NCBI GenBank assembly: GCA_036703965.1
Contig: DATNQP010000442.1
Coordinates: 2,247-34,246, forward strand
DNA from: Leptolyngbyaceae cyanobacterium
GTDB taxonomy: Bacteria > Cyanobacteriota > Cyanobacteriia > Cyanobacteriales > Coleofasciculaceae
DNA: 32,000 nt
Direction: 5' to 3'
The first letter of the stretch is position 1; every line of letters starts with the position of its first letter. Of this stretch, positions 2,636 through 28,164 are shown piece by piece. Below the pieces are notes generated by a model. That model was not told the DNA's origin. It saw only the letters and a program-made list of their open reading frames with translations, and made no database searches. The position numbers and the translations under genes were made by a program.

Positions 2636-2707
2636 GGGCGATTAGCTCAACGGTAGAGCGCCTGCCTTACAAGCAGGATGTTACTGGTTCGAATCCAGTA
2701 TTGCCCA
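2636..2707 (+). tRNA. tRNA-Val: tRNA-Val, anticodon UAC
   Basis: 72-nt cloverleaf. Acceptor stem GGGCGAT/ATTGCCC, anticodon arm CCTGC-CTTACAA-GCAGG with TAC at 2668-2670, T-arm CTGGTTCGAATCCAG, discriminator A. No encoded CCA. Confidence 0.93.
2652..2672 (+). other. CAST homing target: GGTA PAM (2652-2655) plus 17-nt protospacer (2656-2672) inside tRNA-Val
   Basis: GAGCGCCTGCCTTACAA at 2656-2672 is identical to the reverse complement of 2945-2961, the guide of the short crRNA. It is preceded by GTA, which fits the GTN PAM known for Cas12k. Confidence 0.85.
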
Positions 2708-2714
2708 TTGTGCC

Positions 2715-2838
2715 TGTCGAATAACACTTTATTTGTCGTCGTTAACAGATTCGTGTCGCTGTTAACACTTTAGTGTCGTCATTAACAAATTATTGTCATC
2801 TAATTCGTTCCAATGGCTGATAACAAATTATTGTCGTC
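2715..2838. repeat. CAST transposon end with five 20-bp TnsB-binding-type repeats
   Basis: Terminus TGTCGA at 2715. Units: ATAACACTTTATTTGTCGTC (2721-2740), GTTAACAGATTCGTGTCGCT (2741-2760), GTTAACACTTTAGTGTCGTC (2761-2780), ATTAACAAATTATTGTCATC (2781-2800) and, after an 18-bp gap, GATAACAAATTATTGTCGTC (2819-2838). From memory, the layout and consensus closely resemble the ShCAST end used as LE (GTGACAAATTATCTGTCGTC units). Confidence 0.85.
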
Positions 2839-2944
2839 CAGATGACCCCCAACCAGTAGAACGATATGACCGACACTAAAGTATGACCTCATCATAACTT
2901 GCTCCAACCACAAGGATGAGCTACTATCCATGCCTAGTCTTGTG

Positions 2945-2975
2945 TTGTAAGGCAGGCGCTCCTTTCAACCCTTCC
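2945..2975 (-). ncRNA. Delocalized short crRNA (truncated repeat plus 17-nt tRNA-Val homing guide)
   Basis: The minus strand reads GGAAGGGTTGAAAG then GAGCGCCTGCCTTACAA. The 10 nt GGGTTGAAAG equal the 3' end of the array repeat. The guide matches tRNA-Val 2656-2672 and diverges at the next base. This matches the published behaviour of V-K CAST homing crRNAs. Confidence 0.8.
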
Positions 2976-3072
2976 TAAAAATATTGTCAATTCTCAAATT
3001 TTTAAATCGTTTGCTTACATTAAGCAGCGTTAACATACCTTGCATGGCAAGCAGGCACAAGTCTTTTCTGGG

Positions 3073-3327
3073 CTTTCAACCCACCCTACTGCGGGAGGGT
3101 TGATGAAACTTTTGCAAATTCCGGTTCGACCGGAATCTGCAAATCTTTCAACCCACCCTACTGCAGTAGGGTGGGTTGATGAAACCCCTTTGTGCCTCGT
3201 TAATCAACCTCTGTGTCGTCTTTCAACCCACCCTACTGCGGGAGGGTTGATGAAACGTTCTCTAACTGACTTATAACGTTATCAGTCAGTCTTTCAACCC
3301 ACCCTACTGCGGGAGGGTTGATGAAAC
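3073..3327 (-). CRISPR. Type V-K CRISPR array, 4 repeats and 3 spacers, transcribed on the minus strand
   Basis: 37-nt repeats at 3073-3109, 3220-3256 and 3291-3327 (minus strand GTTTCATCAACCCTCCCGCAGTAGGGTGGGTTGAAAG), plus a 41-nt variant at 3145-3185. Spacers at 3110-3144 (35 nt), 3186-3219 (34 nt) and 3257-3290 (34 nt). The GGTTGAAAG 3' end of the repeat is as in ShCAST. Confidence 0.95.
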
Positions 3328-3526: not shown

Positions 3527-3836
3527 GGGAGGGTTCCCCCGAAGGGGATGAGTTCGGAACTATGCGGATTACCGCACCCTTGTAAACAAGGGCTAAGCTT
3601 TGGGAAAAATTACCTTCTCCCTCAGCCGTACCACATTTTGCTGGGAGCGCACCTATCCCGTACTATATACTTCAGTATTCAGACACGGAAATTTTCCCAT
3701 CGATGAAGAAGGTGTCATCGAGGCAGCATCCTGGGCGAGGTTCCAGGGTTCAGAAAGTAGGACTGCCTTCCGAGCAGTCAAACAGACCCTAAATTATCGC
3801 AGTACAGAGGCAATAAGCATGTACTAGTGGCGCTGT
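3527..3836 (-). ncRNA. Cas12k tracrRNA (ends approximate)
   Basis: The minus strand carries, in order, the blocks I recall from the ShCAST tracrRNA: AGCGCC, GCCTCTG, AGGGTCTGTTTGACTG, CTTTCTGAACCCTGG, GATGCTGC, GGATAGGTGCGCTCCCAGCAA and CCCCTTCGGGGGAACCCTCCC. The last block is complementary to the repeat segment GGGTGGGTT. It lies between cas12k and the array, as expected. Confidence 0.85.
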
Positions 3837-3840
3837 TAAT

Positions 3841-3869
3841 TGAATAACATTGTTTATTTATATTGTCAA
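3841..3869 (-). promoter_or_regulatory. Probable tracrRNA promoter
   Basis: On the minus strand: TTGACA (3869-3864), 17-nt spacer, TATTCA (3846-3841). This predicts a start near 3834, just before the conserved AGCGCC block. Confidence 0.45.
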
Positions 3870-3887
3870 GGTTCAGGAAAGGTTTAC

Positions 3888-5955: not shown

Positions 5956-7797
5956 TTACTTGGGAGCGTGATAATCGATAAACCTCTTTGGATGGAACCT
6001 TTTACCATTGCCATTTTCCGGCAACGACTCTCCAGCCAAATCCTTACCCATCGCCCTATTAATTCTTGCTACCAGCGCCTGCGTTCTCGCTTCAAAAAAT
6101 GCGTCAAAATCATCGTTGTGCAAAGTTGTCGGCTCAATTAGGTGCGATCGCAAAATCTCATCAATCCTCTGCCTTGACATCCCTTGTTCTTCTAACTTTG
6201 CCAGATACTCTGATGGTGCTTTCCCCCCTAAAAACTTATTTGTCTTCGCCGTTAGGGGTGTCTTGTTAATAATGCTGTTGTAGCGTGAGCGGGGAATTCC
6301 CTGTCGCTTGCACCACTCTTGAGGGAAGATGTGGTGGTTCTCAATCTTCTCGTCGAAGTAACGAGCTGCCGTAATCGGTTCGCCACTGACAAAATCTAAT
6401 GCCCCATCACGTCTAAGTAAAGCAGCGATCGCTCTATAAGTCGCCCCACCAGAATTAACTAAACTCTGCAACCGTTCTGCCGACAGATGCGCTTCTTTTA
6501 CGGTTGATGGCACTTCGCCACCATTAAGCCATTGAGAAACTTCGATCAAATCCTTGGCGGCAGTCCCTTCCCGTGATCGCGAATAAATCCCCGATGCTGC
6601 CCCACAGTAAAACCACTGTTGTAAGAATTGCCGCACCCAGTCCAGCTTCGTTCCCTCTTGTAAAATCGCAAACAAAGGAGCCATGACCACAAGCTGCATC
6701 GCATAAGGAAGATCATTAGCATCGAAGATGGCTTGAGTATGGAGAAAACGAGCCACTTCCTCAAAGGCGGCACCGATCGGTTCCATCCAGTGCTGATATT
6801 GCGCCAACTCTAAACCCAGCACATCCTGACGATTACATGCTACTCCCGGTAGCCGTTCGGGATGACAACCCTGCTGTTGAGCTTGCACTCGTCGCGCATA
6901 GTTGGCCATCAAAGCGATCGCCTGTAAGAAATCTGTTGGCTTTAACAGGCGCAAAACTTGATGAGAACTAAAGCGCTTCTCTCTGACTATCCAGTCTGAG
7001 CGCAAGTCAAAATCAGTGGCAGCGAAAGAGGACGTTAACAAGTCAAATTGTGTCAGTTCGCACTGTCGTTTGTTGTTTTCCTCGAAAATGTAACAGACAG
7101 CTTCTTTAGGCAGTTCGGCTCTCAAGACGAACAATCCCATCTGATAATGCTCGAATTTCTTGATGACGGTTGCTTCAAATTCGTCAATCAAGGCTAACTT
7201 TTGTGGGTCGTAATGCCAGTATTTGCAGTATTGAGAGCGCCACTGGGGGAAATTGAAGACTTGGGAAATGGGAAATAAATCGAGTTCAAATTCTTTTTTC
7301 GGCGTCGAACAGTCCAGTACAGGTTGTTCGTGCCGATAGAGCTTTTTATCAACCGTTAAGCCCCAGATAGCATCTCGGCGGTCGGTGTGAGGGTAGTCGA
7401 GGGCTTGGGCAATGTCGATATAGTACCAGCGTTGCTCCGCTGGGTAGCGTTTGCCTCGATCGATCCGCACGGGTTGGTCGGATAGCAGGGACATGAACAG
7501 ACTGGTGAGGCGTTGCTGTCCGTCAAGAATCAAAGCTGTCGGCACGGGAGGATTAGCGAGGCTCAAACTTTCGACAAGGCGGGGCTTGAATTTGACATCC
7601 GGGTTGCCTTGCTGAAGGAGCATTACCGCTCCCACTGGGAAACCAAGGGAGACGCTAGCAATTACCCGTTCGATGCGCTCTTCATCCCAGCACCAGGAAC
7701 GCTGAAAGTCCACAAGCTGTATTTTGCCCTGTTGGATATCCCGTAGCAGGTCGAGCAGGGGTTCTTTGGTGATATCGAAGGTGGAAATGGAAGTCAT
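5956..7797 (-). CDS. GmrSD-family DUF262/DUF1524 protein (putative modification-dependent type IV restriction enzyme)
   Basis: The N-terminal DUF262 signature includes QRSWCWDEERIERVIASVSLGFPVG and LILDGQQRLTSL. The C-terminal His-Me/HNH-like DUF1524 signature includes ENHHIFPQEW...NSIINKTPLTAKTNKFLG. The track ORF extends to 7899; the ATG at 7797 (MTSISTFDIT) is the more likely start. Confidence 0.8.
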   Translation of the reverse strand: MTSISTFDITKEPLLDLLRDIQQGKIQLVDFQRSWCWDEERIERVIASVSLGFPVGAVMLLQQGNPDVKFKPRLVESLSLANPPVPTALILDGQQRLTSLFMSLLSDQPVRIDRGKRYPAEQRWYYIDIAQALDYPHTDRRDAIWGLTVDKKLYRHEQPVLDCSTPKKEFELDLFPISQVFNFPQWRSQYCKYWHYDPQKLALIDEFEATVIKKFEHYQMGLFVLRAELPKEAVCYIFEENNKRQCELTQFDLLTSSFAATDFDLRSDWIVREKRFSSHQVLRLLKPTDFLQAIALMANYARRVQAQQQGCHPERLPGVACNRQDVLGLELAQYQHWMEPIGAAFEEVARFLHTQAIFDANDLPYAMQLVVMAPLFAILQEGTKLDWVRQFLQQWFYCGAASGIYSRSREGTAAKDLIEVSQWLNGGEVPSTVKEAHLSAERLQSLVNSGGATYRAIAALLRRDGALDFVSGEPITAARYFDEKIENHHIFPQEWCKRQGIPRSRYNSIINKTPLTAKTNKFLGGKAPSEYLAKLEEQGMSRQRIDEILRSHLIEPTTLHNDDFDAFFEARTQALVARINRAMGKDLAGESLPENGNGKRFHPKRFIDYHAPK

Positions 7798-7929
7798 GCC
7801 CTTGTTCGTGCTAAAGGTTGGCAGCAGCAACGGAGTACTTCTAACTACCCTAAAACGTTCTTGTGTGACCAAGTGAGGCATGAATCGAATTCCTCTCAAT
7901 CTGATAGGTTTTTGTTAAGTTTGTTTAAA

Positions 7930-8238
7930 TTACTCTTGACTATTGGATACAGGGCATAAACGGGTTTTCAGTCCATCGGGAATTTCTTCAAAATGCTCGA
8001 TAAACAAATCTGCGAGTGCTAGATAGCGCAAGTGGTATCTAGTCGGTGGCGAAAAGTTTGTTCCTCGCTCAAACCAGCGTTGGACTGTGGCGAGGGAGCA
8101 TTGACAGATAGCTGCCATCTGCGATCGCGTTACGCTCCATTTGGCTTCAAAGGCACGGGGAGACATCCCTAACTGGCAGTTGGCGTAGAGACGAATCAAC
8201 TCCAGTTCTTGTTGTCCAAGGGGACGAGGATAGGTCAT
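7930..8238 (-). CDS. Small helix-turn-helix protein (putative transcriptional regulator)
   Basis: 102 aa. The segment TRSQMAAICQCSLATVQRWFERG looks like a classic HTH. Its ATG overlaps the stop of the upstream gene (ATGA at 8235-8238). Confidence 0.55.
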   Translation of the reverse strand: MTYPRPLGQQELELIRLYANCQLGMSPRAFEAKWSVTRSQMAAICQCSLATVQRWFERGTNFSPPTRYHLRYLALADLFIEHFEEIPDGLKTRLCPVSNSQE

Positions 8239-8837
8239 GAGTTTGTCTCCAAGGGCAGAGGTTCAAGGTGTTCTTCCCAACAGGTATCAGCGACACAGAA
8301 CTGAGCGCTGGGAGAAGAGGGAGCGAGGAGAATCAGGTATTTCCACCCCCACTGGCAGCGATGAGGAGCAAAGGCGTAGAACCGCCCAATGGCGATGCCC
8401 CTGTCGGTTTCGTCTGTATGAGATAACGGTTTCCATCGGAGGCGATCGCCATACAAAAACTTGGGCGTTTCGGCACTATCCGGGAAATTCGCTGGCAGGC
8501 TAATACCCGGAACTGAAGGATGGAAACTCAGCGAGGGTAAGCCAGAAAGTGAACTATCTAACTGGAAAGCTTGCAGGAGATTGGAGAGCTGTTGGCGATT
8601 CAGGTTGTTAGTGACTTGGCGGATGAGTAAGGCAGTGAGCGAGTCGAGTTCTCCTTGGCTAAGTGGGTTTGTTTGGCTGTTTTCGATGGGTTGGCTGAGG
8701 GACGTTATGCGTTCTGCGCCAAGTGCAGTGCCTATGGCATCGCGCAACTCCAACACGCCAAAGTCCTGTAAGGCTTGCAGGTAGGCAGGGTCAGGTTGAG
8801 TTTGGTGGAAGCGCTGTTGCTTTTCGGTTGGCTTCAT
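8235..8837 (-). CDS. Hypothetical protein
   Basis: The ORF is translationally coupled to the HTH gene. The track start at 8891 is a TTG; the first ATG is at 8837 (MKPTEKQQRF). I recognise no family. The C-terminal segment is Trp/Gly-rich (RLRWKPL..GIAIGRFYAF..QWGWKYLILL). Confidence 0.45.
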   Translation of the reverse strand: MKPTEKQQRFHQTQPDPAYLQALQDFGVLELRDAIGTALGAERITSLSQPIENSQTNPLSQGELDSLTALLIRQVTNNLNRQQLSNLLQAFQLDSSLSGLPSLSFHPSVPGISLPANFPDSAETPKFLYGDRLRWKPLSHTDETDRGIAIGRFYAFAPHRCQWGWKYLILLAPSSPSAQFCVADTCWEEHLEPLPLETNS

Positions 8838-8869
8838 AGGGATTTTTTCTGGGAGTACCCTGATTTTAG

Positions 8870-8969
8870 GCACATAGTCACAAAAAGGCAATAAGAGGGA
8901 CTATGTGCTTATTTTGCCTAGCGCTGATACAATCCAGAGATAATTAAGCACAAGGTTATTTGTGCTTAA
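8870..8969. promoter_or_regulatory. Divergent promoter region with reiterated operator-like half-sites (TGTGCTTA / TAAGCACA)
   Basis: Inverted repeat GCACATAGTC (8870-8879) / GACTATGTGC (8899-8908). Inverted repeat TTAAGCACA (8944-8952) / TGTGCTTAA (8961-8969). The 8-mer TGTGCTTA or its complement occurs three times within 70 bp, just upstream of the RHH gene. Confidence 0.55.
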
Positions 8970-10758: not shown

Positions 10759-11340
10759 ATGGCTACCGATCGCGTTTCTCAGAGCGCACTCGATACTATC
10801 CTTGCGCTACAGATAACGGTAGCTTGGGCGGGTGAAGCATTGTCTGAACCTAAGCGCGTTGGCTGGTGGCGGACTGACCTTGTTGATGAGTTAGGGGGTG
10901 GGGACTTATTCAAGCGCCTCTTCCCTCATACGCATCGGTGGGCATCCCTTGAAGCAGTGCGTCAGGTGGCGATTCAGGTGGACAAGCAGGCAAGACTAGG
11001 AATGGCAAAGCCTGACGAGGTTCGCACGCTGTTCTTCTGGGGTTTTGCAGTGGATGAAAAGCTAGCAGAACGGTTCAACTTTCACAAACGCAGTGGTAAG
11101 GAACCAGTTGAAGTTCTCGACTTTCCTTTAGAACTCGACGAAGACTTTGTTAAGGTTGACTTTGAGGATGCACTCCGGATTCCCAACCACAACGTCAGTC
11201 ATAAGGTCGTTCCTGGGGGTCGCGAAATTGCGGAGGCGATGCCTGAAGCTTTAGAGTTAAGGGCTAAGAAGCTGGCGGCTGGACTTCTTCCTCTTGCAGA
11301 TGACTACCCGATGCCATTTTACCGCGTAGAGGGTAGATAA
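10759..11340 (+). CDS. brxE: BREX type 6 protein BrxE
   Basis: 193-aa first gene of the operon, preceded by a purine-rich GAGGAGGAAGAGGA. Called from its position directly upstream of brxA in a locus that also has brxD and brxHI, which is the type 6 layout of Goldfarb et al. 2015. I do not hold an independent sequence signature for BrxE. Confidence 0.6.
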   Translation: MATDRVSQSALDTILALQITVAWAGEALSEPKRVGWWRTDLVDELGGGDLFKRLFPHTHRWASLEAVRQVAIQVDKQARLGMAKPDEVRTLFFWGFAVDEKLAERFNFHKRSGKEPVEVLDFPLELDEDFVKVDFEDALRIPNHNVSHKVVPGGREIAEAMPEALELRAKKLAAGLLPLADDYPMPFYRVEGR

Positions 11341-11345
11341 CCTGG

Positions 11346-12176
11346 ATGACAATTGAATGTATCCAAAACCAGTTCCCGGAGCAAGATGCACGCTTAGCAC
11401 CGTCATACGGTGTAGAGGTCAATCAATTTCATACCCGACTGCTTCGTATGTCTCTGGCTACGGAGGAAAGCCGTGCTTATTGGGAAAACCTCCAGGTGGA
11501 GATTCCTAAAGATAAGCGGGTGGTTGTGGCTTTTGAGGAGCGCTGGTTTGGTAACAAAAGCATGGCTCGCGTTGAGACTATTCTTAAGAACTTTGCCTAC
11601 AGATTTGATGCGTACCCAGTAGCATTAGAGGTTTTGCAACGTTGGTGTCCGAGCAACCCAACGACCCGCCAAAATATTTGTCACTGGCATCTACAATTAT
11701 CCGATCCTATTTACCGCAGCTTTTCAGGTATCTTTTTGGAGCAAAGACGGCTGCACCCCGAACCCACGCTCGATCGGGATGTAGTCGTTCGCTGGGTATC
11801 TGGACAACTTAATAACCAATGGTCATCAGCTACAACAATTCGCATGGCTACCGCTTTGATGACCTGTGCTACTACGGCTGGACTTTGTTCTGATAACCCT
11901 GGCACGCGCCGTCTGGCGTATCCCAAAGTTACGGATGAGGCACTGGCTTACTGGCTCTATTTTCTCCGCTATTTATCGTTTGAAGGGTCGTTATTAAACA
12001 ATCCTTATTTGGCTTCTGTGGGCTTAAGTGAGAGTTTCCTCGAACAGCGCCTGCTTCGTTTACCCGGACTGTCTTTTAAACGCATGGGCGACTTGCAAGA
12101 TATGGGGTGGCAATACCCCGATTTGAAGTCTTGGGCAATTCACTGTCTTGGACTCAATTGGGAGGATGGGAAATGA
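11346..12176 (+). CDS. brxA: BREX protein BrxA (DUF1819 family)
   Basis: 276 aa, in the conserved position before brxB and brxC. Its stop overlaps the brxB start. Confidence 0.65.
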   Translation: MTIECIQNQFPEQDARLAPSYGVEVNQFHTRLLRMSLATEESRAYWENLQVEIPKDKRVVVAFEERWFGNKSMARVETILKNFAYRFDAYPVALEVLQRWCPSNPTTRQNICHWHLQLSDPIYRSFSGIFLEQRRLHPEPTLDRDVVVRWVSGQLNNQWSSATTIRMATALMTCATTAGLCSDNPGTRRLAYPKVTDEALAYWLYFLRYLSFEGSLLNNPYLASVGLSESFLEQRLLRLPGLSFKRMGDLQDMGWQYPDLKSWAIHCLGLNWEDGK

Positions 12177-12814
12177 CCACTTCTCTGGGACCGTTGTTTG
12201 ACAAAACCTTTCCGGTAGTGCAGGCACTCCGCAATGACCTGTTAGCTGAGGGGGGTCCCCAGATCAGTACCATGCGAAACTATCGTTTTGCCATCTTACT
12301 CTACGATCCGGGGGCTGAGTTTAAACTGCGATCGCAGATTCGCCGTCTGAGTGATGAACTCAAAGGACTAGGATGGAACATTTTATCCATTTCACTCCAA
12401 TCCCTGTTGCTGGAGCGACTCAAGAAGGAAGATCGGCGCGTCATTGATAGCATTATCCGTACTGAACGCCGTTTCTATGACCGAAATCCAGACCGTGCCT
12501 TAAACCATTTAAAAGACAAAATTGCACCCCACATTGAAGGCGCTGGCGGCATTGCTAAGGACGTTATTGCTCTGATTGATGAGTTTGCCGACAAACATCC
12601 TGCTGATATCAATCGAACTGTAATTTTTGTGGGGCGGACAGGTGCTTTATATCCATTCTTTCACTCGTCATCGCTGCTGAAGCATATTGACGGGAAAACC
12701 CGCAATCTGCCTGTTGTTTTGCTCTATCCAGGCAAGCGACATGATGGCAATGCGCTTTCGTTTATGGGAGAAATTCCCCCAGACCGAGACTACCGACCGA
12801 GGATTTATTCGTGA
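12173..12814 (+). CDS. brxB: BREX protein BrxB (DUF1788 family)
   Basis: The ATG at 12173 overlaps the brxA stop (ATGA). The track ORF starting at 12107 is an upstream extension inside brxA. Called from size and position before brxC. Confidence 0.65.
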   Translation: MTTSLGPLFDKTFPVVQALRNDLLAEGGPQISTMRNYRFAILLYDPGAEFKLRSQIRRLSDELKGLGWNILSISLQSLLLERLKKEDRRVIDSIIRTERRFYDRNPDRALNHLKDKIAPHIEGAGGIAKDVIALIDEFADKHPADINRTVIFVGRTGALYPFFHSSSLLKHIDGKTRNLPVVLLYPGKRHDGNALSFMGEIPPDRDYRPRIYS

Positions 12815-12851
12815 ACCACTATTCTATTGATTTCGTAAGGAAGCTGAGGAA

Positions 12852-15800
12852 ATGCTAGTCAAAGAGGTCTTTGCTGCGGATGTCACCCGCGACATTGCTC
12901 CTGTAATTTACTTCCACGAGCAGGAGCCTGCCAAGGTTCTAGCAGAGGTCTCTGAGTATATCATCACAGGGGGATATCCAGAAACAGACCCGCGCCATCG
13001 TCGTATTCAATCGGGAATCCACGAGCAGTTTGTGAGATTGCTTTTGTCGTTGGCAGCAGAATTGCGAAAACCACAAGGGACTGAGCTTCCGGCTGTGTGG
13101 ATTTCTGGCTTTTATGGATCGGGGAAGTCTAGTTTCGCCAAGCTGTTAGGTTTGGCACTCGATGGCGTAACTTTACCCGATCGCCGCACGGTTGCCGAAG
13201 CTCTTCTCGCTAGAGATGACTCGCCAAAGGCAAAGGAATTCAGAGAAGCGTGGGAGGAAGTCCGCCGTCAAATCGATCCGATCGCAGTCGTTTTCGATAT
13301 TGGCGCAGTCGCTAGGGATGACGAACATATTCACTCCGCCGTGAAGCGGCAAGTGCAAGCGCGTCTGGGGTACTGTCCCAACAGCTATGTGGCTAACTTC
13401 GAGTTGAAGTTGGAACTTGACGGTAAGTGGGATGAATTTTTGGCTCAGGCTCAAAAAACGCTCTCGCAACCTTGGTTAGAACTCAAAGACAGCCAACTGG
13501 CGGACGAAGATTTTTCTCTAGTCATGCACGAAATGTACCCAGATCGGTACACCGATCCGATGACTTGGTATGACAGCCATATTGCTTCCCAAGACCAAAG
13601 TGGTTCCTCGGTGGCAGAAACAACCAAAGCGATCGCGGCAATGCTGCGACATCGCGCTGCTGGCAAAACCTTATTTTTGGTGGTCGATGAGGTGAGCCAG
13701 TATATCTATCAAAATGACAACCGAATGCTCAAGTTACAGTCCTTTGTAGCTGACCTCGGTCAAAAGCTCAAGAGTACAGTTTGGCTGTTTGCTACCGGAC
13801 AACAAAAGCTTGAAGACAGCGACGATGAGAGCAATATTGGCAAACTGAAAGACCGCTTTCCTCCCAAACTTCGCGTTCACCTCGACCCTGCCAATATCCG
13901 AGATGTCGTTCACAAACGGCTGTTGAAAAAGTCAGCGACTAAAGAACCCCAACTGCGATCGCTTTTTGGTCAGCACCGCAGCGACCTCAAACTCTACGGC
14001 TATTCCTGCGATTCCATCACGGAAGAAGACTTCCTTGAAGTTTACCCGATGCTGCCAGGGTATGTTGATCTGCTGATGCAAATTACGTCTAATTTGCGAG
14101 TCCGTTCGACGCGCACTAAGGGTGATGATTATGCGATTCGAGGATTGTTACAACTGTTGGGGGAACTGTTCAGAACCCAGAATTTGGGAGAGCAGGAACT
14201 GGGAGCATTAGTGACTTTAGATAGCATCTTTGAGGTGCAACAATCGGCATTAGATGCCGATATGCAAAATACCCTCTCTCGTGTCTTTTCTCATCCAGAG
14301 GTTGCCAGTGACGACATGGCAATCAAGGTAACTAAGGTTGTATCGCTGTTGGAATTAATTCAAGAACAGCAACCCACTACAACTAAGTTCATCAGTCAGT
14401 GCCTCTACGAGCAGTTAGGGAGGGGGAATAATGAAGCCATTGTTCAGCAGGCATTAGATAAACTGCGCGATTTAGGATTTATTTCTTATTCAGACAAGCT
14501 CGGCTATAAAATTCAAAGTTCCGCAGGGCAAGAATGGCAACGCGAACGAGAAGAGCATAGTGTACCCGATGATGACATTAGTCTAATTGTTAGCGAAAAA
14601 GTTAAGGACTTATTGGGAACTGTAGAGAACCCCTCTTATAAAGGCAAAAAGTTTAGGTGGACTGCTTTTTACACTGACAACCGTCAGCGCAAGGATGAAC
14701 GGTTACAGAAAGTCACCGATCTAGATGTGATTGCAGTTGATTTCCGTTATTTAACCAAAACTGAAGATCGCGATACAACAACCTGGGTGCAAACCAGCGA
14801 CAGCCCACTGCTGCGAAATCGCCTACTTTGGGTTGTAGGGACGCCTGCTGAAGTGAAATCCCTTGTTAGAGAATTGGCGCGTTCCCGGCACATTCTTAAT
14901 CGCTATGGCTCGCGCTTACAGTCCATTTCTAAAGATAAACAACGCCTGTATTTCGAGGAACAAAGTCGCTGTGAGGAGCTAGAAAAACAAGCCAAAGATG
15001 CGATTACTAAAGCATTTATGGATGGGGAACTTTACTTCCGAGGTAGGCAAATTGACAAGCGAGAACACGGGACATCCTTTGCTACTGTGCTGCATCGCGT
15101 TGGTGAGAGTATTCTTCCCGACCTTTACAACCAATATGTCGATATTGCGATTACACCTACTGAATTGGCGCAATTGCTCGAACCCACGTTATCGGGACCC
15201 TCTTCTAAGTTCATGCAGCAAGGATTGGGGATTCTTGAACTCGATGCAGGTAAGTACGTCCCCACTTGCAACGGTCAAGTTCCCAGCCGGATTTTGCAAT
15301 ACATTACGGATTACAATGGAGCATCGACGGTCAGTATAGTAAACGATTTCGGTGGTCCCCCTTATGGCTATTCCGCAGACGCAATTAAGGCGTGTTTAGT
15401 GGGACTACTTCGGGCTAGTAAAATTCGCATTCGACCGGAGTCTGGAGCAGAAATTACCTCGATCCGCGATCCGGGGACTAAAGATATTTTCCAGAAAGAC
15501 CGCGATTTCAAGCGTTCTGATATTCTCCCAGAAAGCGGTCAAGGAATTAGTGCGCGAGACCGAAATAAAATCTGTAAGTTCTTCAAAGACTATTTACAGG
15601 TTGACCTCGATCGCGAGAACGATGCGATCGCAGATGAGGTGTTCAACTGGTTCCCAGGTCGGGCTAAAGTGCTGCAAGAATTGGAGAAGCAGTATAGTCG
15701 GCTGCCCAATCGTCCCGAACTGCCCGATTCGCTCCTTAAGCTGCGAACTGCCTTAGAAGACTGTATGCGATCGCGCCAAGTCGAGGCTACAGTGCTAGCG

Positions 15801-16481
15801 GTCAAGAAAAATTTGGATGCCCTTAGTGATGGACTTGAAAAAATGGGCATTTTCTCTTCAGAACTAACGGAGGAAACGGTTCAAGCGGTGAGGAAGGCTG
15901 GGGAGATTCAAGATCATCAAGTGGCACAACTCAAGGAAATTGGGCGAGTCGCTGAAGTTAGTGAGGCTGTGAATGCTCTAGAAGAACAGCTTAATCTGGA
16001 ACGCCCTTGGCGCGATATCAGCAGTATTGAGACGCATCTGCAAGCCATCTGCGAACACTATAAAGCCGTGCGTCTGGAACTGATAAACCGTCAAGAGAAG
16101 CAAGCTGAGGAAGTTCAGGAACAGATTAAGCGGCGACAAGGCTTTAACAGAGTGAGTGCAGATAAAGCACTGTATGTTGTTCGTCCCATTCAAAAGGCAC
16201 GCTATGACACAACTGAGGATTCGTTGTATCCCTCTTTAATTCAGTTGCGAGATACAGCGTTGCTCAAGCTTCAAGAAGCAGCACAGGAGGCAAATGACAA
16301 TCTTGACAACCTGCTATCCCAGGATGAGCAGGTACAGGTACAGGTGGTGCAACTGGCACTCATCGACAGTTTGAGAAACCGCGAGGTGAGTACGGAACAA
16401 GAGGTGGAGGCGTTGGTGAACGAGTTACGCGATCGCTTGCTGGCACAGCTTAAGGAAAATACTCGCATCCGTATTATTTAA
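12852..16481 (+). CDS. brxC: BREX ATPase BrxC/PglY
   Basis: 1209 aa. Walker A GFYGSGKSSFAKLLG and Walker B-like LFLVVDEVSQY. Size, N-terminal region and a long coiled C-terminal part are typical of BrxC. Confidence 0.85.
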   Translation: MLVKEVFAADVTRDIAPVIYFHEQEPAKVLAEVSEYIITGGYPETDPRHRRIQSGIHEQFVRLLLSLAAELRKPQGTELPAVWISGFYGSGKSSFAKLLGLALDGVTLPDRRTVAEALLARDDSPKAKEFREAWEEVRRQIDPIAVVFDIGAVARDDEHIHSAVKRQVQARLGYCPNSYVANFELKLELDGKWDEFLAQAQKTLSQPWLELKDSQLADEDFSLVMHEMYPDRYTDPMTWYDSHIASQDQSGSSVAETTKAIAAMLRHRAAGKTLFLVVDEVSQYIYQNDNRMLKLQSFVADLGQKLKSTVWLFATGQQKLEDSDDESNIGKLKDRFPPKLRVHLDPANIRDVVHKRLLKKSATKEPQLRSLFGQHRSDLKLYGYSCDSITEEDFLEVYPMLPGYVDLLMQITSNLRVRSTRTKGDDYAIRGLLQLLGELFRTQNLGEQELGALVTLDSIFEVQQSALDADMQNTLSRVFSHPEVASDDMAIKVTKVVSLLELIQEQQPTTTKFISQCLYEQLGRGNNEAIVQQALDKLRDLGFISYSDKLGYKIQSSAGQEWQREREEHSVPDDDISLIVSEKVKDLLGTVENPSYKGKKFRWTAFYTDNRQRKDERLQKVTDLDVIAVDFRYLTKTEDRDTTTWVQTSDSPLLRNRLLWVVGTPAEVKSLVRELARSRHILNRYGSRLQSISKDKQRLYFEEQSRCEELEKQAKDAITKAFMDGELYFRGRQIDKREHGTSFATVLHRVGESILPDLYNQYVDIAITPTELAQLLEPTLSGPSSKFMQQGLGILELDAGKYVPTCNGQVPSRILQYITDYNGASTVSIVNDFGGPPYGYSADAIKACLVGLLRASKIRIRPESGAEITSIRDPGTKDIFQKDRDFKRSDILPESGQGISARDRNKICKFFKDYLQVDLDRENDAIADEVFNWFPGRAKVLQELEKQYSRLPNRPELPDSLLKLRTALEDCMRSRQVEATVLAVKKNLDALSDGLEKMGIFSSELTEETVQAVRKAGEIQDHQVAQLKEIGRVAEVSEAVNALEEQLNLERPWRDISSIETHLQAICEHYKAVRLELINRQEKQAEEVQEQIKRRQGFNRVSADKALYVVRPIQKARYDTTEDSLYPSLIQLRDTALLKLQEAAQEANDNLDNLLSQDEQVQVQVVQLALIDSLRNREVSTEQEVEALVNELRDRLLAQLKENTRIRII

Positions 16482-16506
16482 CCCGATCGCCATTACTTTT
16501 GATTTG

Positions 16507-19500
16507 ATGAAAACGAACTACCTAACTCCAGAAGCCAAATTTAAACTCTCCAATACAGTTCGGGAACTGTGCGTTAGCCTGCTTAGGGATATTCACAATG
16601 CGGCAGATAGCGTCTATCGCCTGTCTATTCCCTTGAGTAAGGCGGGGTTGGCTGAGGAGCAACGGATTAAACGGGAGCGTTTGGAAAAATGGCTCGACGA
16701 GCAGGCGCGGAGTGAGGCGAGGGGGAAAAAGGAAACTAGAGAACAGGCAAATGCTCGTTATCGCTTGCAGGCGGAGAAGTTGGCGGCGGCAACGTTTTTA
16801 AACCGGATTGTCGTCATCAAGCAGATGGAAGCAATGGGGTTAATTAAACCTGCGGTGTTGACGGGAGGTTGGCAGAGTCCAGCTTATCGGGAGTTTCGGG
16901 AGTTTGCCCCGGATTTGCTTAAGGATGAAACCGAAGGGTTTGGGACGCTGTTGCAGTTACTCTATGACGAATTGGCGCTGGATTTGCCGGGGTTGTTTGG
17001 GGATGTGGGGGTAACGTCGCTGTTTCCCATTCCAGCGAGTACGTTACGGGCAACGATTGAGGTATTGGACAATCCAGAGCTAAAAACGGCTTGGTTGGAT
17101 GATACGACATTGGGGTGGGTGTATCAGTATTGGAATGACCCGGAACGGGAAGAACTGGATAAAAAGCTGAATGCTGGGGGCAAGGTGGAACCTCATGAGG
17201 TTGCCAGCAAGACGCAGATGTTTACCGAACGCTACATGGTGGAGTGGTTGCTGCACAACAGCTTAGGGCAGATGTGGCTGGCAATTTGTGAGAAGCAGGG
17301 ATGGACGGCGGAAGTACAGGCAGACGGAACGCTCGATCGCTTGGAAGAACGACGCAAAGTTTGGCGAGAGAAGCGGGAGAAGGGGGAGGTTGCCCTTGAT
17401 GCATTGATGCCGATCAAGTCGGAGGCTGAGGAACGCTGGAAATATTGGGTGCCACAACCGTTAACCGATGCCGCAGTTGCCCATGCACCCAAAAGTATTT
17501 GGGATATAAAGCTCCTCGATCCGGCGTGTGGGTCGGGGCATTTTCTAGTGATTGCATTTGGGTTATTGTTTGCGCTGTATCAGGAGGAAGCGCGGCATCG
17601 GGGTGAGGAGTGGAGCGACAAGGAAATTGTTGAATCTATTCTGTCTAACAACTTGTACGGGGTGGATATTGATGCGCGATCGGTTCAGATAGCAGCAGCA
17701 GCGTTGTTGTTGAAGGCGAAGTCGCTGTGTCGGGATGCAGAACTAAAGGCTGTAAATTTGGTTGCGTCTGACCTCAATTTGTCGGCGTTACCAGAGAATG
17801 ACCCGGCATTGGTAGAGCTTCGACAGCAAGTGACAGAAGCAACGGGTATCCCGGAAGAGTTGACGAATCAGATTGTGCAGGCATTGAAGGGGGCAGATCA
17901 GTGGGGTAGTCTGCTGAAGATCGATCGCGAAGTGGAGAAAGCGATCGCCTACTACGAGCAGACCCTTGCCCGTCCGGTTCAAGGGAATTTGTTTGCCCAG
18001 GAGTCCGCTCTCAATCCTCGACCTCCCATACCTGCCTCCCCTAACCGCAAAGACATTCTTCTCGAAAAACTAGAACAGTTTCTCAGCCGTCGTACCAGTG
18101 GGGATGATTTGGGTTTGCGCTTGCGGGGAGAACAGTTAACGGCTGGAGTCCGGTTTATTCGGCTGATTCGAGAGAATGCCTATGATGTTGTGGTTGGAAA
18201 TCCGCCCTATCAAGGTGCTAGCAAAATGGATGATGCGAAATATTTGGTTAGGCATTACTCCAAAGGCAAAGCAGATCTATTTGCAGCCTTCTTGGAAAGA
18301 GGTTTAGAACTGGTCAAGCCAGGAGGCAACTCGGCGCTGTTAACCATGCGAAACTGGATGTTTCTTAACCAGTATTCAGAGATTCGGGAGTATTTGCTTG
18401 ATAATTTTGATTTGCGCGTATTAGGAGATTTAGATCAAGCTGCTTTTGAGGATGTGACAAACTCAGAAGTTTTGACCGTTGTTATGAGTGTGTTTGTAAA
18501 AAATCGACCAATTGAAAAAATCAGTGTAGCTCTACGATGGGTTCAAGTTGATGAGGGGGTCTATGACAGAGGACGGACGAGACGTAAGATAGCAGCCTTT
18601 CTAACACAAGCAAAGCGATTTGAATTTCATAGCGATCGCTTTGATGTGATTAAGGAGAAGCCGCTCATTTATTGGTGGGATGATGAATTTCTCAATACTT
18701 ATAGTGATACTCCTAAACTAGGTGAATTATCGGAAGTAAGAGCGGGTTTGAATACCAGCAGTAATGAGCGGTATATTCGCTTAATTTGGGAAGTAGATCC
18801 CAAAAATGTCTTCTTAAACAAAGAATTTACGTTAAATCGCTGGAATTCATTCTTTTCCTGGGTACCAACTGTTATGGGTGCAAAGGGAAAAAGATGGCTA
18901 GCTCCCCTACTTAATGTTGTTCTTTGGAAGTTTAACGGACTCGAAATGAAAGTGATGCATGAAAACCGATGGGGAAGCCATAGTAAGCGAGTCCAAAACG
19001 AATCAAAGTACTTCGTCCGGGGTGTTGCCTTCCCAAAAATTAGTTCTGAATTCGTTGCTAGAGCATATACATTCACAAGCATCTTTAATGATGCTGCACC
19101 ATCAGTATTTCCAAATGATATAGCTGGTGTTACTTGTTTGCTTAATAGCACTCTGGCACGCGATGTAATGAGAGCGCTAAATCCGACCGTAAATTTCCAA
19201 GTCGGAGACGTAAACCGTCTCCCCCTCTTCCCTATCGAATCTGCTGATGAAATCTTCACCAAACTAGACGTAGCATTTACCGAACACGAAGCCGCCCGTG
19301 AAACCTCAGTCGAATTCAAAAAACCCGGACGTTCCGCTTGGAACTATGCCCAAGACTGGGCGCAACGTGCCGTAGATCGAGAACCCGGAACCCCCCTCCC
19401 CGACTATCAACCCATCTACGAAGATCCACCCCCTACTAACTTTGTCTCCTATGCAATCGGCGTTGCCCTTGGGCGCTTTGGTGCAAATGGTGGAGGCATC

Positions 19501-20523
19501 CTCAACGAAGCACCCAAGAATGCCCTCCCCAACGGCATCCTCTACCTCTCCACCTACTCCGAAAAAGACAGCCTCCAACACCCCGCCTACCAAATCATTA
19601 AAGACGCATGGACAGAACACAGCAACGCTATTACCAAAAACACCCCCTTGAAAAAATGGCTGCGCGAGTCCTTCTTCAAAGACGTACACCTGGGAATGTA
19701 TGAAAGCCGCCCCATCTACTTCCCTCTCTCCTCCGCCAAGAAAAACTTTGTTGCCTTCGTCAGCATTCATCGCTGGCAAGACAACACCCTGCAAACTCTC
19801 CTCGCTGACTACCTCTACCCCGAACTCAACACCATTGAAGGCGAACTCAGCGACTTAATAGACGCCCGCCACCAGGGTGATAAAAAGGACAGAGCAAAAG
19901 CTGAAAAATGCTACAGCGAAGTCCAGAAACTCTACGAAGAACTCAAAACTTTTTGCGATAAAGTCAGTCAGTGCGCCGAACAGGGACCGCCCCCCGCTAA
20001 CCCCAAAGATACCCGCCGAGAAGCTGATGCCCGTTTCCAAATGGATCTCGATGACGGCGTAATGATAAATAGTGCCGCCCTCTGGTCACTCCTCGAACCC
20101 CAGTGGACAAAACCAAAAACTTGGTGGTCAGAACTGTGCAACGCCCAAGGCAAAAAAGACTACGACTGGGCGCACCTCGCCGCCCGTTACTTCCCCAAAC
20201 GGGTCGATGAAAAATGTCAAAAAGATCCCTCCCTCGCTGTTGCCCACGGCTGTTTTTGGAAATACCATCCCGCCAAAGCCTATGCCTGGGAACTGCGCCT
20301 GCAAGACGAAATTAGTCCCGACTTTACCATTGAAGAAAACTCCGATGCACTCCGCCAGGAATTTGAAGAAAAGCATCCTCAACTGGTAGAGGACTTAATT
20401 GAAGCGGAAGACAAGCGCCGAGAACGCAAGCGCAAGAAAGAAGAGGACTCAGAAGCTTATGGTCCTCTCTTTGATTCTGAAAGCACTGATGAAAGTATTA
20501 CACAGGAAATTCTTGAGGATTAG
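16507..20523 (+). CDS. pglX: BREX N6-adenine DNA methyltransferase PglX
   Basis: SAM-binding motif I LLDPACGSGHFL and catalytic motif IV VVGNPPYQG. About 1338 aa. The ATG at 16507 is preferred over the TTG at 16504. Confidence 0.9.
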   Translation: MKTNYLTPEAKFKLSNTVRELCVSLLRDIHNAADSVYRLSIPLSKAGLAEEQRIKRERLEKWLDEQARSEARGKKETREQANARYRLQAEKLAAATFLNRIVVIKQMEAMGLIKPAVLTGGWQSPAYREFREFAPDLLKDETEGFGTLLQLLYDELALDLPGLFGDVGVTSLFPIPASTLRATIEVLDNPELKTAWLDDTTLGWVYQYWNDPEREELDKKLNAGGKVEPHEVASKTQMFTERYMVEWLLHNSLGQMWLAICEKQGWTAEVQADGTLDRLEERRKVWREKREKGEVALDALMPIKSEAEERWKYWVPQPLTDAAVAHAPKSIWDIKLLDPACGSGHFLVIAFGLLFALYQEEARHRGEEWSDKEIVESILSNNLYGVDIDARSVQIAAAALLLKAKSLCRDAELKAVNLVASDLNLSALPENDPALVELRQQVTEATGIPEELTNQIVQALKGADQWGSLLKIDREVEKAIAYYEQTLARPVQGNLFAQESALNPRPPIPASPNRKDILLEKLEQFLSRRTSGDDLGLRLRGEQLTAGVRFIRLIRENAYDVVVGNPPYQGASKMDDAKYLVRHYSKGKADLFAAFLERGLELVKPGGNSALLTMRNWMFLNQYSEIREYLLDNFDLRVLGDLDQAAFEDVTNSEVLTVVMSVFVKNRPIEKISVALRWVQVDEGVYDRGRTRRKIAAFLTQAKRFEFHSDRFDVIKEKPLIYWWDDEFLNTYSDTPKLGELSEVRAGLNTSSNERYIRLIWEVDPKNVFLNKEFTLNRWNSFFSWVPTVMGAKGKRWLAPLLNVVLWKFNGLEMKVMHENRWGSHSKRVQNESKYFVRGVAFPKISSEFVARAYTFTSIFNDAAPSVFPNDIAGVTCLLNSTLARDVMRALNPTVNFQVGDVNRLPLFPIESADEIFTKLDVAFTEHEAARETSVEFKKPGRSAWNYAQDWAQRAVDREPGTPLPDYQPIYEDPPPTNFVSYAIGVALGRFGANGGGILNEAPKNALPNGILYLSTYSEKDSLQHPAYQIIKDAWTEHSNAITKNTPLKKWLRESFFKDVHLGMYESRPIYFPLSSAKKNFVAFVSIHRWQDNTLQTLLADYLYPELNTIEGELSDLIDARHQGDKKDRAKAEKCYSEVQKLYEELKTFCDKVSQCAEQGPPPANPKDTRREADARFQMDLDDGVMINSAALWSLLEPQWTKPKTWWSELCNAQGKKDYDWAHLAARYFPKRVDEKCQKDPSLAVAHGCFWKYHPAKAYAWELRLQDEISPDFTIEENSDALRQEFEEKHPQLVEDLIEAEDKRRERKRKKEEDSEAYGPLFDSESTDESITQEILED

Positions 20524-20525
20524 AT

Positions 20526-21656: not shown

Positions 21657-21717
21657 CTCTTCAACTTAAACTCAAATACTATTCTTCAACATTTAACTAG
21701 CCTTTCCAAGTCAAGCC

Positions 21718-24615: not shown

Positions 24616-24646
24616 AGAAGGCAGAGCGGCAAAACAACTAGAAATT

Positions 24647-25966: not shown

Positions 25967-25968
25967 CC

Positions 25969-28077: not shown

Positions 28078-28164
28078 ATAGTCCTGAAGTTTAATAGTGC
28101 AGCCTTATTAGACACTCTCGCCTGATAGTATGACTAACATTCCATCCAAAACTCCTCTGCTAAC

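What the first reader, a model, noticed from the sequence alone, without database searches (positions are those of the whole stretch)
2945..3006. Delocalized short crRNA with a minimal 10-nt repeat remnant and its own candidate promoter
About 100 bp outside the array, the minus strand reads GGAAGGGTTGAAAG followed by a 17-nt guide to tRNA-Val. Only GGGTTGAAAG is shared with the array repeat. That is the part that should pair with the tracrRNA tail GGGGGAACCCTCCC. Upstream on the minus strand there is a plausible promoter: TTTAAA (3006-3001), 17 nt, TATTTT (2983-2978). It would start transcription about 10-12 nt before the guide. This suggests the homing guide is expressed independently of the array. 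A 17-nt guide is short enough that it may tune activity, as discussed for V-K homing.
Basis: partly seen in the sequence, partly recalled or inferred. Interest (0 to 1): 0.65.

Follow-up and report, generated by a model that had tools for sequence, protein, structure and literature searches.

The report
Homing guide RNA of Cas12k transposon
This is the short "homing" guide RNA gene that a cyanobacterial CRISPR-guided (Cas12k) transposon uses to insert next to a tRNA-Val gene; that kind of guide is already well described, and the one possibly new detail is a candidate promoter of its own that resembles the tracrRNA promoter.

Summary
On the minus strand, GGAAGGGTTGAAAG (2975-2962) is followed by a 17-nt spacer (2961-2945). 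The spacer matches tRNA-Val 2656-2672 exactly, has a GTA PAM, and the transposon left end starts 60 bp past the PAM. It lies 95 nt beyond a 4-repeat array, downstream of a tracrRNA and an intact cas12k.

This is the known type V-K CAST "delocalized crRNA", also called the truncated repeat-spacer unit or anchor spacer. The same spacer-to-tRNA-Val pair is already catalogued in related elements.

The repeat remnant is about 14 nt (16 by similarity), not 10.

The promoter claim is partly supported. The proposed -10 (TATTTT) sits in a block, TTGACAATATTTT. That block is the second-best match in the whole window to a matrix built from tracrRNA promoters of other loci. It is unchanged in nine related loci whose homing spacers differ.

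The proposed -35 is not conserved. No promoter signal exists across the wider family. No terminator separates the array from the unit, so read-through from the tracrRNA/array transcript remains an equally good route.

Verdict: a new member of a known kind. I put the chance of an own promoter at about 0.4. Interest is low to moderate.

The parts
2636..2707 (+). tRNA-Val(TAC) gene, the attachment site
   Evidence: ARAGORN; Rfam tRNA, 75.6 bits
2653..2655 (+). PAM GTA (GTN type), immediately 5' of the protospacer
   Evidence: Read from the sequence. GTN is the V-K PAM according to Hsieh & Peters and PMC9938897
2656..2672 (+). Protospacer in the tRNA (D-stem 3' strand, anticodon stem and loop)
   Evidence: 17/17 complementarity with 2945-2961 (pair I5)
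2715..2838 (.). Transposon left end. The terminus TGTCGAATAAC starts at 2715 and is followed by repeated TGTCG..TTAACA units, which I take to be TnsB-binding sites
   Evidence: The point where WIN, L084, L081 and L090 become alike, although they sit next to different tRNAs or junction sequences. Repeats are (D3, D10). The TnsB-binding role is inferred from the known structure of Tn7-like ends, not tested here
2945..2961 (-). 17-nt homing (anchor) spacer GAGCGCCTGCCTTACAA
   Evidence: The same spacer is listed for tRNA-Val in Hsieh & Peters Table S1
2962..2977 (-). Truncated repeat TAGGAAGGGTTGAAAG. The 14-nt tag is 2975-2962: -1..-5 GAAAG, and -6..-14 GGAAGGGTT
   Evidence: 14/16 identical to the array repeat's 3' end (D2). 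The family-wide conserved block is -13..-1. It forms 8 of 9 pairs with the tracrRNA tail
2978..2990 (-). TTGACAATATTTT, a tracrRNA-promoter-like element. The candidate -10 TATTTT is 2983-2978, with a predicted start near 2972-2970
   Evidence: Second-best hit in the window (8.6 bits) to a matrix of tracrRNA promoters from other loci. Shuffle p about 0.01. Unchanged in nine sub-clade loci
3001..3006 (-). Probably not a functional element
   Evidence: 4/6 match. Spacing changed by a 2-nt deletion in L084, and the hexamer changed to ATTAAA in L092
2978..3072 (-). 95-nt trailer between the last repeat and the unit, conserved in the sub-clade
   Evidence: No significant RNA structure (z = -0.05) and no terminator-like site
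3073..3327 (-). CRISPR array: four repeats (3327-3291, 3256-3220, 3184-3145 variant, 3109-3073) and three spacers
   Evidence: (D1)
3527..3851 (-). tracrRNA (predicted). The 3' anti-repeat tail AACCCTCCC is at 3535-3527 and the internal anti-repeat CTTTC at 3757-3753
   Evidence: Family-conserved start ..ACAGCGCC.. and tail. Pairing. The 5' end is inferred from the -10 position and from the mapped AnCAST start site, 35 nt after the cas12k stop (PMC9938897)
3857..3873 (-). tracrRNA promoter TGAACCTTGACAATATAAA (-10 TATAAA at 3862-3857)
   Evidence: Matches the family consensus GAACCTTGAMAATAnAAT. Best hit in the window, 11.3 bits
3888..5816 (-). cas12k, 642 aa, full length
   Evidence: 100% coverage; hits named type V CRISPR-associated protein Cas12k; 93-73% identity to a close clade

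Best explanation
The segment is the homing-guide gene of a type V-K CRISPR-associated transposon (CAST) that is inserted next to tRNA-Val.

Shown from the sequence:
- A 14-nt 3' remnant of the CRISPR repeat (16 nt by similarity) is fused to a 17-nt spacer.
- It lies on the strand of cas12k, the tracrRNA and the array, 95 nt beyond the last repeat and about 230 bp inside the left end.
- The spacer matches the tRNA exactly, next to a GTA PAM, and the transposon end lies 60 bp past the PAM.

Inferred from the solved Cas12k-sgRNA structure and from the literature on these guides:
- GAAAG (-1..-5) pairs with an internal CUUUC of the tracrRNA.
- GGAAGGGUU (-6..-14) pairs with the tracrRNA 3' tail AACCCUCCC.
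- Cas12k loaded with this pair binds the tRNA-Val protospacer and directs TniQ, TnsC and TnsB to insert the element about 60 bp downstream, left end first.
- The unit is encoded at the size of a mature crRNA, so it needs little or no processing.

Expression route (inferred, with my estimates):
- The unit is very probably reached by read-through of the tracrRNA/array transcript. I estimate about 0.7 that this contributes.
- In this Cas12k sub-clade it may also have its own promoter, at about 0.4. That promoter would be a tracrRNA-promoter-like block, TTGACAATATTTT, whose -10 (TATTTT, 2983-2978) would start transcription at about -10 to -12, inside the repeat remnant.
For: Anatomy: (I5, D2). Cas12k identity.

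Family comparison: 65 of 81 V-K loci carry GAAAG plus a 17-nt spacer whose complement lies within 900 nt downstream. The conserved block is -13..-1.

Pairing with the tracrRNA: (-13.4 kcal/mol for the unit, -15.9 for an array repeat). The structural basis is in bioRxiv 10.1101/2021.07.07.451486.

The kind is described in bioRxiv 10.1101/2021.02.06.429022, PMC9938897, PMC8730458 and PMC9798831. The same spacer and target are already catalogued.

Promoter sub-claim:
- The tracrRNA promoter consensus is GAACCTTGAMAATAnAAT.
- The window's tracrRNA promoter and the sequence upstream of the unit share TGAnnnTTGACAATAT, with the two -10 boxes in register.
- A matrix trained on other loci gives only four hits of 7 bits or more in 64 kb scanned. 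The top two are the tracrRNA promoter (11.3) and this site (8.6). Shuffle p is about 0.01.
- The block is unchanged in nine loci with Cas12k down to about 74% identity and with five different homing spacers.
- Positions -50..-17 are 94-100% identical to the window, against 84-95% for the leader, trailer and tracrRNA.
- The standard scan also misses the true tracrRNA promoter, so its silence here means little.
Against: For identity as a homing guide: nothing substantial. tnsB, tnsC and tniQ are not within the 32-kb window, so I cannot show that the element is still mobile.

For the own promoter:
- TATTTT departs from the family's TAnAAT at the two conserved A positions. Its 8.6 bits is below 40 of 42 real tracrRNA promoters.
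- There is no positional -10 signal upstream of units across 43 non-redundant loci.
- Close relatives L087, L088, L093 and L095 carry other unit modules without the motif.
- Background conservation in the sub-clade is already high, about 85-90%.
- A start at -10 would leave the family-conserved positions -11..-14 out of the RNA.
- In AnCAST, one start site drives tracrRNA plus array (PMC9938897).
- No terminator or stable structure separates the array from the unit.
Confidence: 0.85

Rival explanations
1. The same homing guide, but with no promoter of its own. It is the 3'-most part of the tracrRNA-array precursor and is trimmed to the tracrRNA/Cas12k-protected 14+17 nt. The TTGACAATATTTT block is conserved only because the sub-clade is young, or for another reason.
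For: In AnCAST, tracrRNA and array form one precursor from a single start site and the array has no promoter of its own (PMC9938897). There is no terminator-like site or significant structure between the array and the unit. No upstream motif is conserved across the family (the same conclusion is in Hsieh & Peters). The -10 is sub-optimal. Background identity in the sub-clade is high.
Against: The second-best tracrRNA-promoter-like site in the whole window sits exactly here, on the correct strand. It is unchanged while the spacers and nearby trailer positions vary. The AnCAST data did not address the anchor unit.
Confidence: 0.5
2. The conserved TTGACAATAT block, present here and in the tracrRNA promoter, is a binding site for a shared regulator. 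It would co-regulate the tracrRNA and the homing guide, or block read-through, rather than act as a core promoter. One candidate regulator is the small HTH protein encoded upstream of cas12k in this clade.
For: In tracrRNA promoters the conserved GAACCTTGAMAA abuts the -10. It therefore lies where a -35 cannot be, which suggests a factor site. A 102-aa ORF with a weak HTH match is kept near cas12k across the clade.
Against: No binding data exist. CvkR does not bind the tracrRNA promoter in AnCAST (PMC9938897). The upstream GAACC part of the consensus is not shared with the site at the unit (the full-length matrix scores are negative).
Confidence: 0.12
3. A fossil: the guide is intact in sequence but belongs to an immobilised element and no longer functions.
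For: No tnsB, tnsC or tniQ within 32 kb. Hsieh & Peters found many cas12k genes without a nearby tnsBCQ operon.
Against: cas12k is full length. The tracrRNA promoter, anti-repeats and array are intact. The spacer matches 17/17. V-K CASTs often carry more than 25 kb of cargo, so the transposase genes may simply lie beyond the window.
Confidence: 0.1
4. A chance resemblance, not a guide RNA gene.
For: None beyond the short length of the motifs.
Against: An exact 17-mer lies next to an exact 10-mer of the repeat, on the correct strand, with a PAM and the correct distance to the transposon end. The same architecture is found in 65 of 81 related loci.
Confidence: 0.01

Closest known systems
Type V-K CAST delocalized crRNA (Saito et al. 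2021, Cell 184:2441; ShCAST guide to tRNA-Leu)
   Same: A short crRNA-like unit outside the array, near the left end. It has a partial repeat and a 17-nt spacer that homes to a tRNA gene through Cas12k and the tracrRNA.
   Different: The target here is tRNA-Val. I could not read the Saito paper itself, so its content is taken from citing papers. None of the sources I could read describes a dedicated promoter.
Truncated repeat-spacer units (Hsieh & Peters 2021, bioRxiv 10.1101/2021.02.06.429022)
   Same: About 13 bp of the repeat's 3' end plus a 17-bp spacer, a GTN PAM, and a position at or beyond the end of the array. The identical spacer GAGCGCCTGCCTTACAA targeting tRNA-Val is listed in their Table S1, including for Trichocoleus sp. 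FACHB-6, which has a near-identical array repeat.
   Different: They report no conserved motif outside the unit. Here, one sub-clade keeps a tracrRNA-promoter-like block directly upstream. This exact array repeat is absent from their table, and this remnant appears there only inside array repeats.
Anchor spacer / R* of AnCAST and other cyanobacterial CASTs (Ziemann et al. 2023, PMC9938897)
   Same: Layout tRNA, left end, anchor spacer/R*, array, tracrRNA, cas12k. The PAM-to-left-end distance of 60 falls within their 46-82 nt range. The tracrRNA promoter is conserved just after the cas12k stop codon.
   Different: This clade has a GmrSD-family gene and a small ORF with a weak HTH match upstream of cas12k, on the same strand, instead of a divergent cvkR/MerR gene.
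Type I-F3 CAST att-targeting guide with an atypical repeat and a regulated promoter (Petassi et al. 2020, as summarised)
   Same: A dedicated homing guide kept apart from ordinary array guides. In one I-F3 branch its expression is separately controlled by an Xre-family regulator.
   Different: A different effector (Cascade), a full-length atypical repeat, no tracrRNA, and a different promoter and regulator.

Membership tests
Type V-K CAST homing (delocalized / truncated repeat-spacer) crRNA | Lies inside the element between the CRISPR array and the left end, on the strand of cas12k, tracrRNA and array | tested here: met
   Unit at 2977-2945 (-); array 3327-3073 (-); left end from 2715; cas12k 5816-3888 (-)
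Type V-K CAST homing (delocalized / truncated repeat-spacer) crRNA | Only the 3' ~12-14 nt of the repeat is kept, and that part can still pair with both tracrRNA anti-repeats | tested here: met
   14/16 identity to the repeat's 3' end and none further upstream (D2). It forms 8 of 9 pairs with the tail AACCCUCCC, and GAAAG pairs with CUUUC at 3757-3753.
Type V-K CAST homing (delocalized / truncated repeat-spacer) crRNA | A ~17-nt spacer matching a protospacer just outside the left end, usually in a tRNA gene | tested here: met
   17/17 match to tRNA-Val 2656-2672, with a mismatch at position 18
Type V-K CAST homing (delocalized / truncated repeat-spacer) crRNA | GTN PAM 5' of the protospacer | tested here: met
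   GTA at 2653-2655
Type V-K CAST homing (delocalized / truncated repeat-spacer) crRNA | Distance from PAM to left end in the natural range (46-82 nt; PMC9938897) | tested here: met
   60 bp, from 2655 to 2715. The terminus was placed by comparing junctions
Type V-K CAST homing (delocalized / truncated repeat-spacer) crRNA | Cas12k and tracrRNA are encoded alongside | tested here: met
   Cas12k. tracrRNA promoter, start and tail
Type V-K CAST homing (delocalized / truncated repeat-spacer) crRNA | tnsB-tnsC-tniQ and a right end are present in the same element | tested here: inconclusive
   None among the ORFs of the 32-kb window. Cargo (GmrSD, BREX-like, EVE, NACHT-HEAT) fills it to the edge. 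The rest of the contig is not available
Type V-K CAST homing (delocalized / truncated repeat-spacer) crRNA | The RNA is expressed and directs Cas12k-dependent insertion | not testable with these tools
   Needs small-RNA sequencing and a transposition assay
Sigma-70-type promoter dedicated to the unit | A -10 hexamer of TAnnnT type 5-9 nt upstream of a plausible start | tested here: met
   TATTTT at 2983-2978, in register with the tracrRNA promoter's TATAAA. But a TAnnnT so placed occurs in 28% of shuffles
Sigma-70-type promoter dedicated to the unit | A -35 hexamer at 16-18 nt that is conserved among relatives | tested here: not met
   TTTAAA matches 4/6. L084 has a 2-nt deletion in the gap between the boxes, and L092 reads ATTAAA. 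The tracrRNA promoter of this clade also lacks a -35
Sigma-70-type promoter dedicated to the unit | The motif is conserved beyond the local background and is specific to this place | tested here: inconclusive
   It is the second-best matrix hit in the window, with p about 0.01, and is unchanged in nine loci. But background identity is 84-95% and the motif is absent from all other clades
Sigma-70-type promoter dedicated to the unit | A mapped primary transcription start | not testable with these tools
   I could not obtain transcriptome data for this organism

The most novel reading that the evidence does not exclude
In this Cas12k sub-clade the homing guide is a self-contained mini-gene. A diverged copy of the tracrRNA promoter core (TTGACAATAT plus a -10) is placed so that transcription starts inside the repeat remnant. 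That would yield a nearly mature crRNA without array transcription or processing. Homing to the tRNA site would then be expressed, and perhaps co-regulated with the tracrRNA, separately from array-guided insertion into other mobile elements. The module also seems to be retargeted between tRNA genes by a few point changes in spacer positions 11-17 (Val, Ala and Pro-like variants on otherwise identical flanks).
Probability: 0.35. Interest if true: 0.55.

Novelty: new member of a known kind. Interest (0 to 1): 0.3.

Why it matters
The guide itself adds nothing new. It is one more example of V-K CAST homing, and the spacer-target pair is already catalogued.

The promoter question is open in the literature. 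Hsieh & Peters state that it is unclear whether Cas12k elements regulate the choice between homing and array-guided transposition, and that they found no motif outside the unit.

A dedicated, tracrRNA-like promoter would give a concrete and testable handle on that choice. It would also matter in practice for engineered V-K CASTs. Constructs with an unmodified left end can carry the homing motif, as noted for ShCAST in PMC10949235, so a promoter there could drive unwanted self-homing.

Tried and rejected
1. Family-wide promoter. I anchored 43 non-redundant units at the spacer start and found no positional TAnnnT enrichment. The rate was 0.027 per position at -40..-17 against 0.029 at -60..-41. 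Rejected as a general feature.

2. tracrRNA-promoter matrix in other clades. Only weak hits appeared, and some were artefacts on TTGAAAG repeat ends. Rejected outside the sub-clade.

3. A family-wide hairpin between the homing spacer and its 3' flank. The mean z was -0.78 at the unit, but -0.3 to -0.8 at control offsets and -0.56 on the opposite strand. Rejected as a general feature and kept only as a sub-clade observation.

4. A terminator or structured RNA between the array and the unit. None was found (z = -0.05).

5. TTGACA (2990-2985) as a true -35. No usable -10 lies 16-18 nt downstream (TTGAAA, TGAAAG), so I rejected it.

6. The motif as an extra TnsB-binding site. Similarity to the left-end repeats is limited to TTGTC, so I rejected it.

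7. A protein-coding reading. Only trivial ORFs of 43 aa or fewer overlap the region.

8. A metagenome pattern scan for more sub-clade members gave three hits and nothing new.

9. Saito et al. 2021 could not be retrieved. The supplements of PMC9938897 hold no start-site data for the anchor unit.

Full report
**1. What is there**

The window begins in host DNA. It has a MazG gene at 1010-1876 and a DUF2227 gene at 1982-2599, followed by tRNA-Val(TAC) at 2636-2707. The many GCGATCGC sites are typical of cyanobacteria; that point rests on my own knowledge.

A Tn7-like transposon end follows directly. All the features below lie on the minus strand, listed by falling coordinate:
- cas12k at 5816-3888. 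It encodes 642 aa, is covered in full, and is 93-73% identical to a close clade and about 50% identical to Nostoc-type Cas12k.
- A tracrRNA promoter at 3873-3857.
- A tracrRNA of about 325 nt that ends in CCCCTTCGGGGGAACCCTCCC (3547-3527).
- A four-repeat array at 3327-3073, with the repeat GTTTCATCAACCCTCCCGCAGTAGGGTGGGTTGAAAG.
- A 95-nt trailer.
- The feature under study.

**2. The observation**

The minus strand reads TAGGAAGGGTTGAAAG (2977-2962), then GAGCGCCTGCCTTACAA (2961-2945). This 17-mer is an exact inverted copy of tRNA-Val 2656-2672 (pair I5). Position 18 does not match.

GGGTTGAAAG occurs five times in the window. All five are on the minus strand, between 2962 and 3300.

The protospacer is preceded by GTA (2653-2655). 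I compared junctions in loci that carry the same left end next to different tRNAs or different junction sequences (WIN, L084, L081, L090). This places the left-end terminus at TGTCGAATAAC, window position 2715, which is 60 bp past the PAM. The published natural range is 46-82 nt (PMC9938897).

**3. What it is**

[quoted passage not shown] It has been described under three names:
- delocalized crRNA (Saito et al. 2021, as cited in PMC9798831, PMC11656645 and PMC8730458);
- truncated repeat-spacer unit (Hsieh & Peters, bioRxiv 10.1101/2021.02.06.429022);
- anchor spacer with truncated repeat R* (PMC9938897).

I repeated the Hsieh & Peters search on 80 diverse loci fetched through Cas12k plus the window. 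Of these 81, 65 carry GAAAG followed by a 17-mer whose complement lies within 900 nt downstream.

In 43 non-redundant loci the conserved block is -13..-1, GG[A/T]GGGTTGAAAG, with a purine at -14. This fits the Cas12k-sgRNA structure (bioRxiv 10.1101/2021.07.07.451486). There, a 14-nt repeat tag pairs through -1..-5 with an internal tracrRNA segment and through -6..-14 with the tracrRNA 3' tail.

In the window, GGAAGGGUU forms 8 of 9 pairs with AACCCUCCC, with one A-C mismatch. The array repeat also forms 8 of 9, with one U-U mismatch. The duplex energies are -13.4 and -15.9 kcal/mol. An internal CUUUC lies at 3757-3753.

The "10-nt minimal remnant" undercounts the tag. And GAAAG is not expected to pair with the tail.

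Hsieh & Peters' Table S1 already lists the identical spacer against tRNA-Val in several elements. One of them, from Trichocoleus sp. FACHB-6, has a near-identical array repeat.

Seventeen nucleotides is the length of the processed spacer in mature V-K crRNAs. The length needs no special "tuning" explanation.

**4. The promoter claim**

The two hexamers are present, but together they match only 8 of 12 positions. Sites of that quality occur at 1.5-4 per kb. A comparably placed one appears in 4.5% of shuffles. The standard scan does not list the site. That scan also misses the real tracrRNA promoter, so its silence means little.

Across the family I found no positional -10 signal upstream of units. 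This agrees with Hsieh & Peters.

Three further results do speak for the -10.

First, tracrRNA promoters across the family share GAACCTTGAMAATAnAAT (also reported in PMC9938897). Their -10 (TAnAAT) lies 6-7 nt before the start site mapped in AnCAST. The window's tracrRNA promoter reads TGAACCTTGACAATATAAAT. The sequence upstream of the unit reads TGAGAATTGACAATATTTTT.

Second, I built a matrix from tracrRNA promoters of the other loci and scanned both strands of the window. Only four hits reach 7 bits. The best two are the tracrRNA promoter (11.3 bits) and 2990-2978 (8.6 bits). Shuffle p is about 0.01.

Third, TTGACAATATTTT and the remnant are unchanged in nine loci of a sub-clade: WIN, L001, L081, L084, L085, L086, L090, L092 and L094. 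Their Cas12k proteins go down to about 74% identity, and five different homing spacers are attached. Identity to the window is 94-100% for -50..-17. It is 84-95% for the leader, trailer and tracrRNA.

Several results speak against an own promoter:
- TATTTT lacks the two conserved A positions, and its score is below 40 of 42 real tracrRNA promoters.
L084 has a 2-nt deletion between the boxes, and L092 reads ATTAAA.
- Close relatives L087, L088, L093 and L095 carry other unit modules without the motif.
- A start at about -10 would leave the family-conserved -11..-14 out of the RNA.
- In AnCAST a single start site drives tracrRNA plus array (PMC9938897).
- Nothing resembling a terminator or a stable structure separates the array from the unit.

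I conclude that an own promoter is plausible, at about 0.4, but unproven. Read-through very likely contributes either way.

**5. Mechanism**

Shown here: the anatomy, the match, the PAM, the distance to the left end and the pairing potential.

Inferred from the solved structure and the cited literature: the roughly 31-nt RNA pairs with the tracrRNA, loads Cas12k, recognises the tRNA-Val protospacer and directs insertion about 60 bp downstream, left end first.

Not testable here: expression, the RNA's 5' and 3' ends, and whether the element still has tnsB, tnsC and tniQ. None lies in the window. Its remaining 26 kb holds cargo, including a GmrSD-family gene, a BREX-like cluster, an EVE-domain gene and a NACHT-HEAT gene.

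**6. Novelty and score**

The kind, the architecture and even the spacer-target pair are known. This locus is a new member of a known kind.

The only candidate novelty is a sub-clade-specific, tracrRNA-promoter-like element that could make the homing guide an independent transcription unit. That bears on the open question of pathway choice in Cas12k elements. Interest is 0.3.

Noticed in passing
window 2915-2961 (-); L081, L001, L085, L090, L092, L094 at the matching place: In the sub-clade, spacer positions 5-14 (GCCTGCYTTR) can pair with the 3' flank (..CAAAG..YAGGC). The flank bases differ between loci with different spacers in ways that keep the pairing, including some G-U-only pairs. This could be a 3' hairpin that covers part of the guide. 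Across the wider family, folding of spacer plus flank is no better than at control offsets, so this holds at most for the sub-clade.
   Followed up: partly
window 2945-2961 (-) compared with L081-L083, L092, L090, L085, L001: Homing spacers on otherwise near-identical flanks differ only at position 2 and positions 11-17. Examples are Val GAGCGCCTGCCTTACAA, Ala GAGCGCCTGCTTTGCAA and a Pro-like GCGCGCCTGCTTTGGAA. This suggests retargeting between tRNA genes that share GAGCGCCTGC by point mutation rather than by spacer acquisition.
   Followed up: partly
window 3109-3144 and 3257-3290 (-); repeat at 3145-3184: Two of the three array spacers are near-perfect palindromes, and L085 carries a related palindromic spacer. 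The third repeat is a 40-nt variant that contains a perfect 32-nt palindrome (I4, I6, I8).
   Followed up: no
L087 and L003 (also L097) compared with the window: The unit-plus-upstream module does not follow the Cas12k tree. L087 (Cas12k 85% identical to the window) carries the module of L003 (51%). L092 (about 74%) carries the window's module even though its array repeat differs. This suggests that the array-distal/left-end module is exchanged by recombination.
   Followed up: partly
window 5956-8891 (-); L081-L091 and L094 upstream of cas12k: In most loci of this Cas12k clade (not L092, L093 or L095), a GmrSD_N-family gene, a 102-aa ORF with a weak HTH match and a roughly 200-aa ORF lie directly upstream of cas12k on the same strand. 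Other V-K CASTs carry a divergent MerR-type (cvkR) or Arc regulator gene in that position.
   Followed up: no
window 10759-28593 (+) and 28754-31951 (-): The cargo looks like a defence island. It has a BREX-like cluster (BrxB, a protein with a weak BrxC match, an Eco57I/MmeI-type methylase that I read as PglX-like, PglZ, a BrxC/D-family ATPase and a DEAD-box helicase), an EVE-domain gene, and a NACHT-HEAT protein whose gene contains 11.6 copies of a 93-bp tandem repeat (28917-29998).
   Followed up: no
window 3857-3873 (-) and all related loci: The tracrRNA promoter motif GAACCTTGAMAATAnAAT is strikingly constant across Cas12k proteins that are only 45-50% identical. Its conserved upstream half abuts the -10, where a -35 cannot lie. 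That hints at an unidentified factor-binding site.
   Followed up: partly
window 3527-3851 (-): The predicted tracrRNA of this clade is about 325 nt, roughly 100 nt longer than the 218-nt ShCAST tracrRNA. Members of the sub-clade differ by insertions and deletions in the region before the last hairpin (alignment columns 320-380).
   Followed up: no
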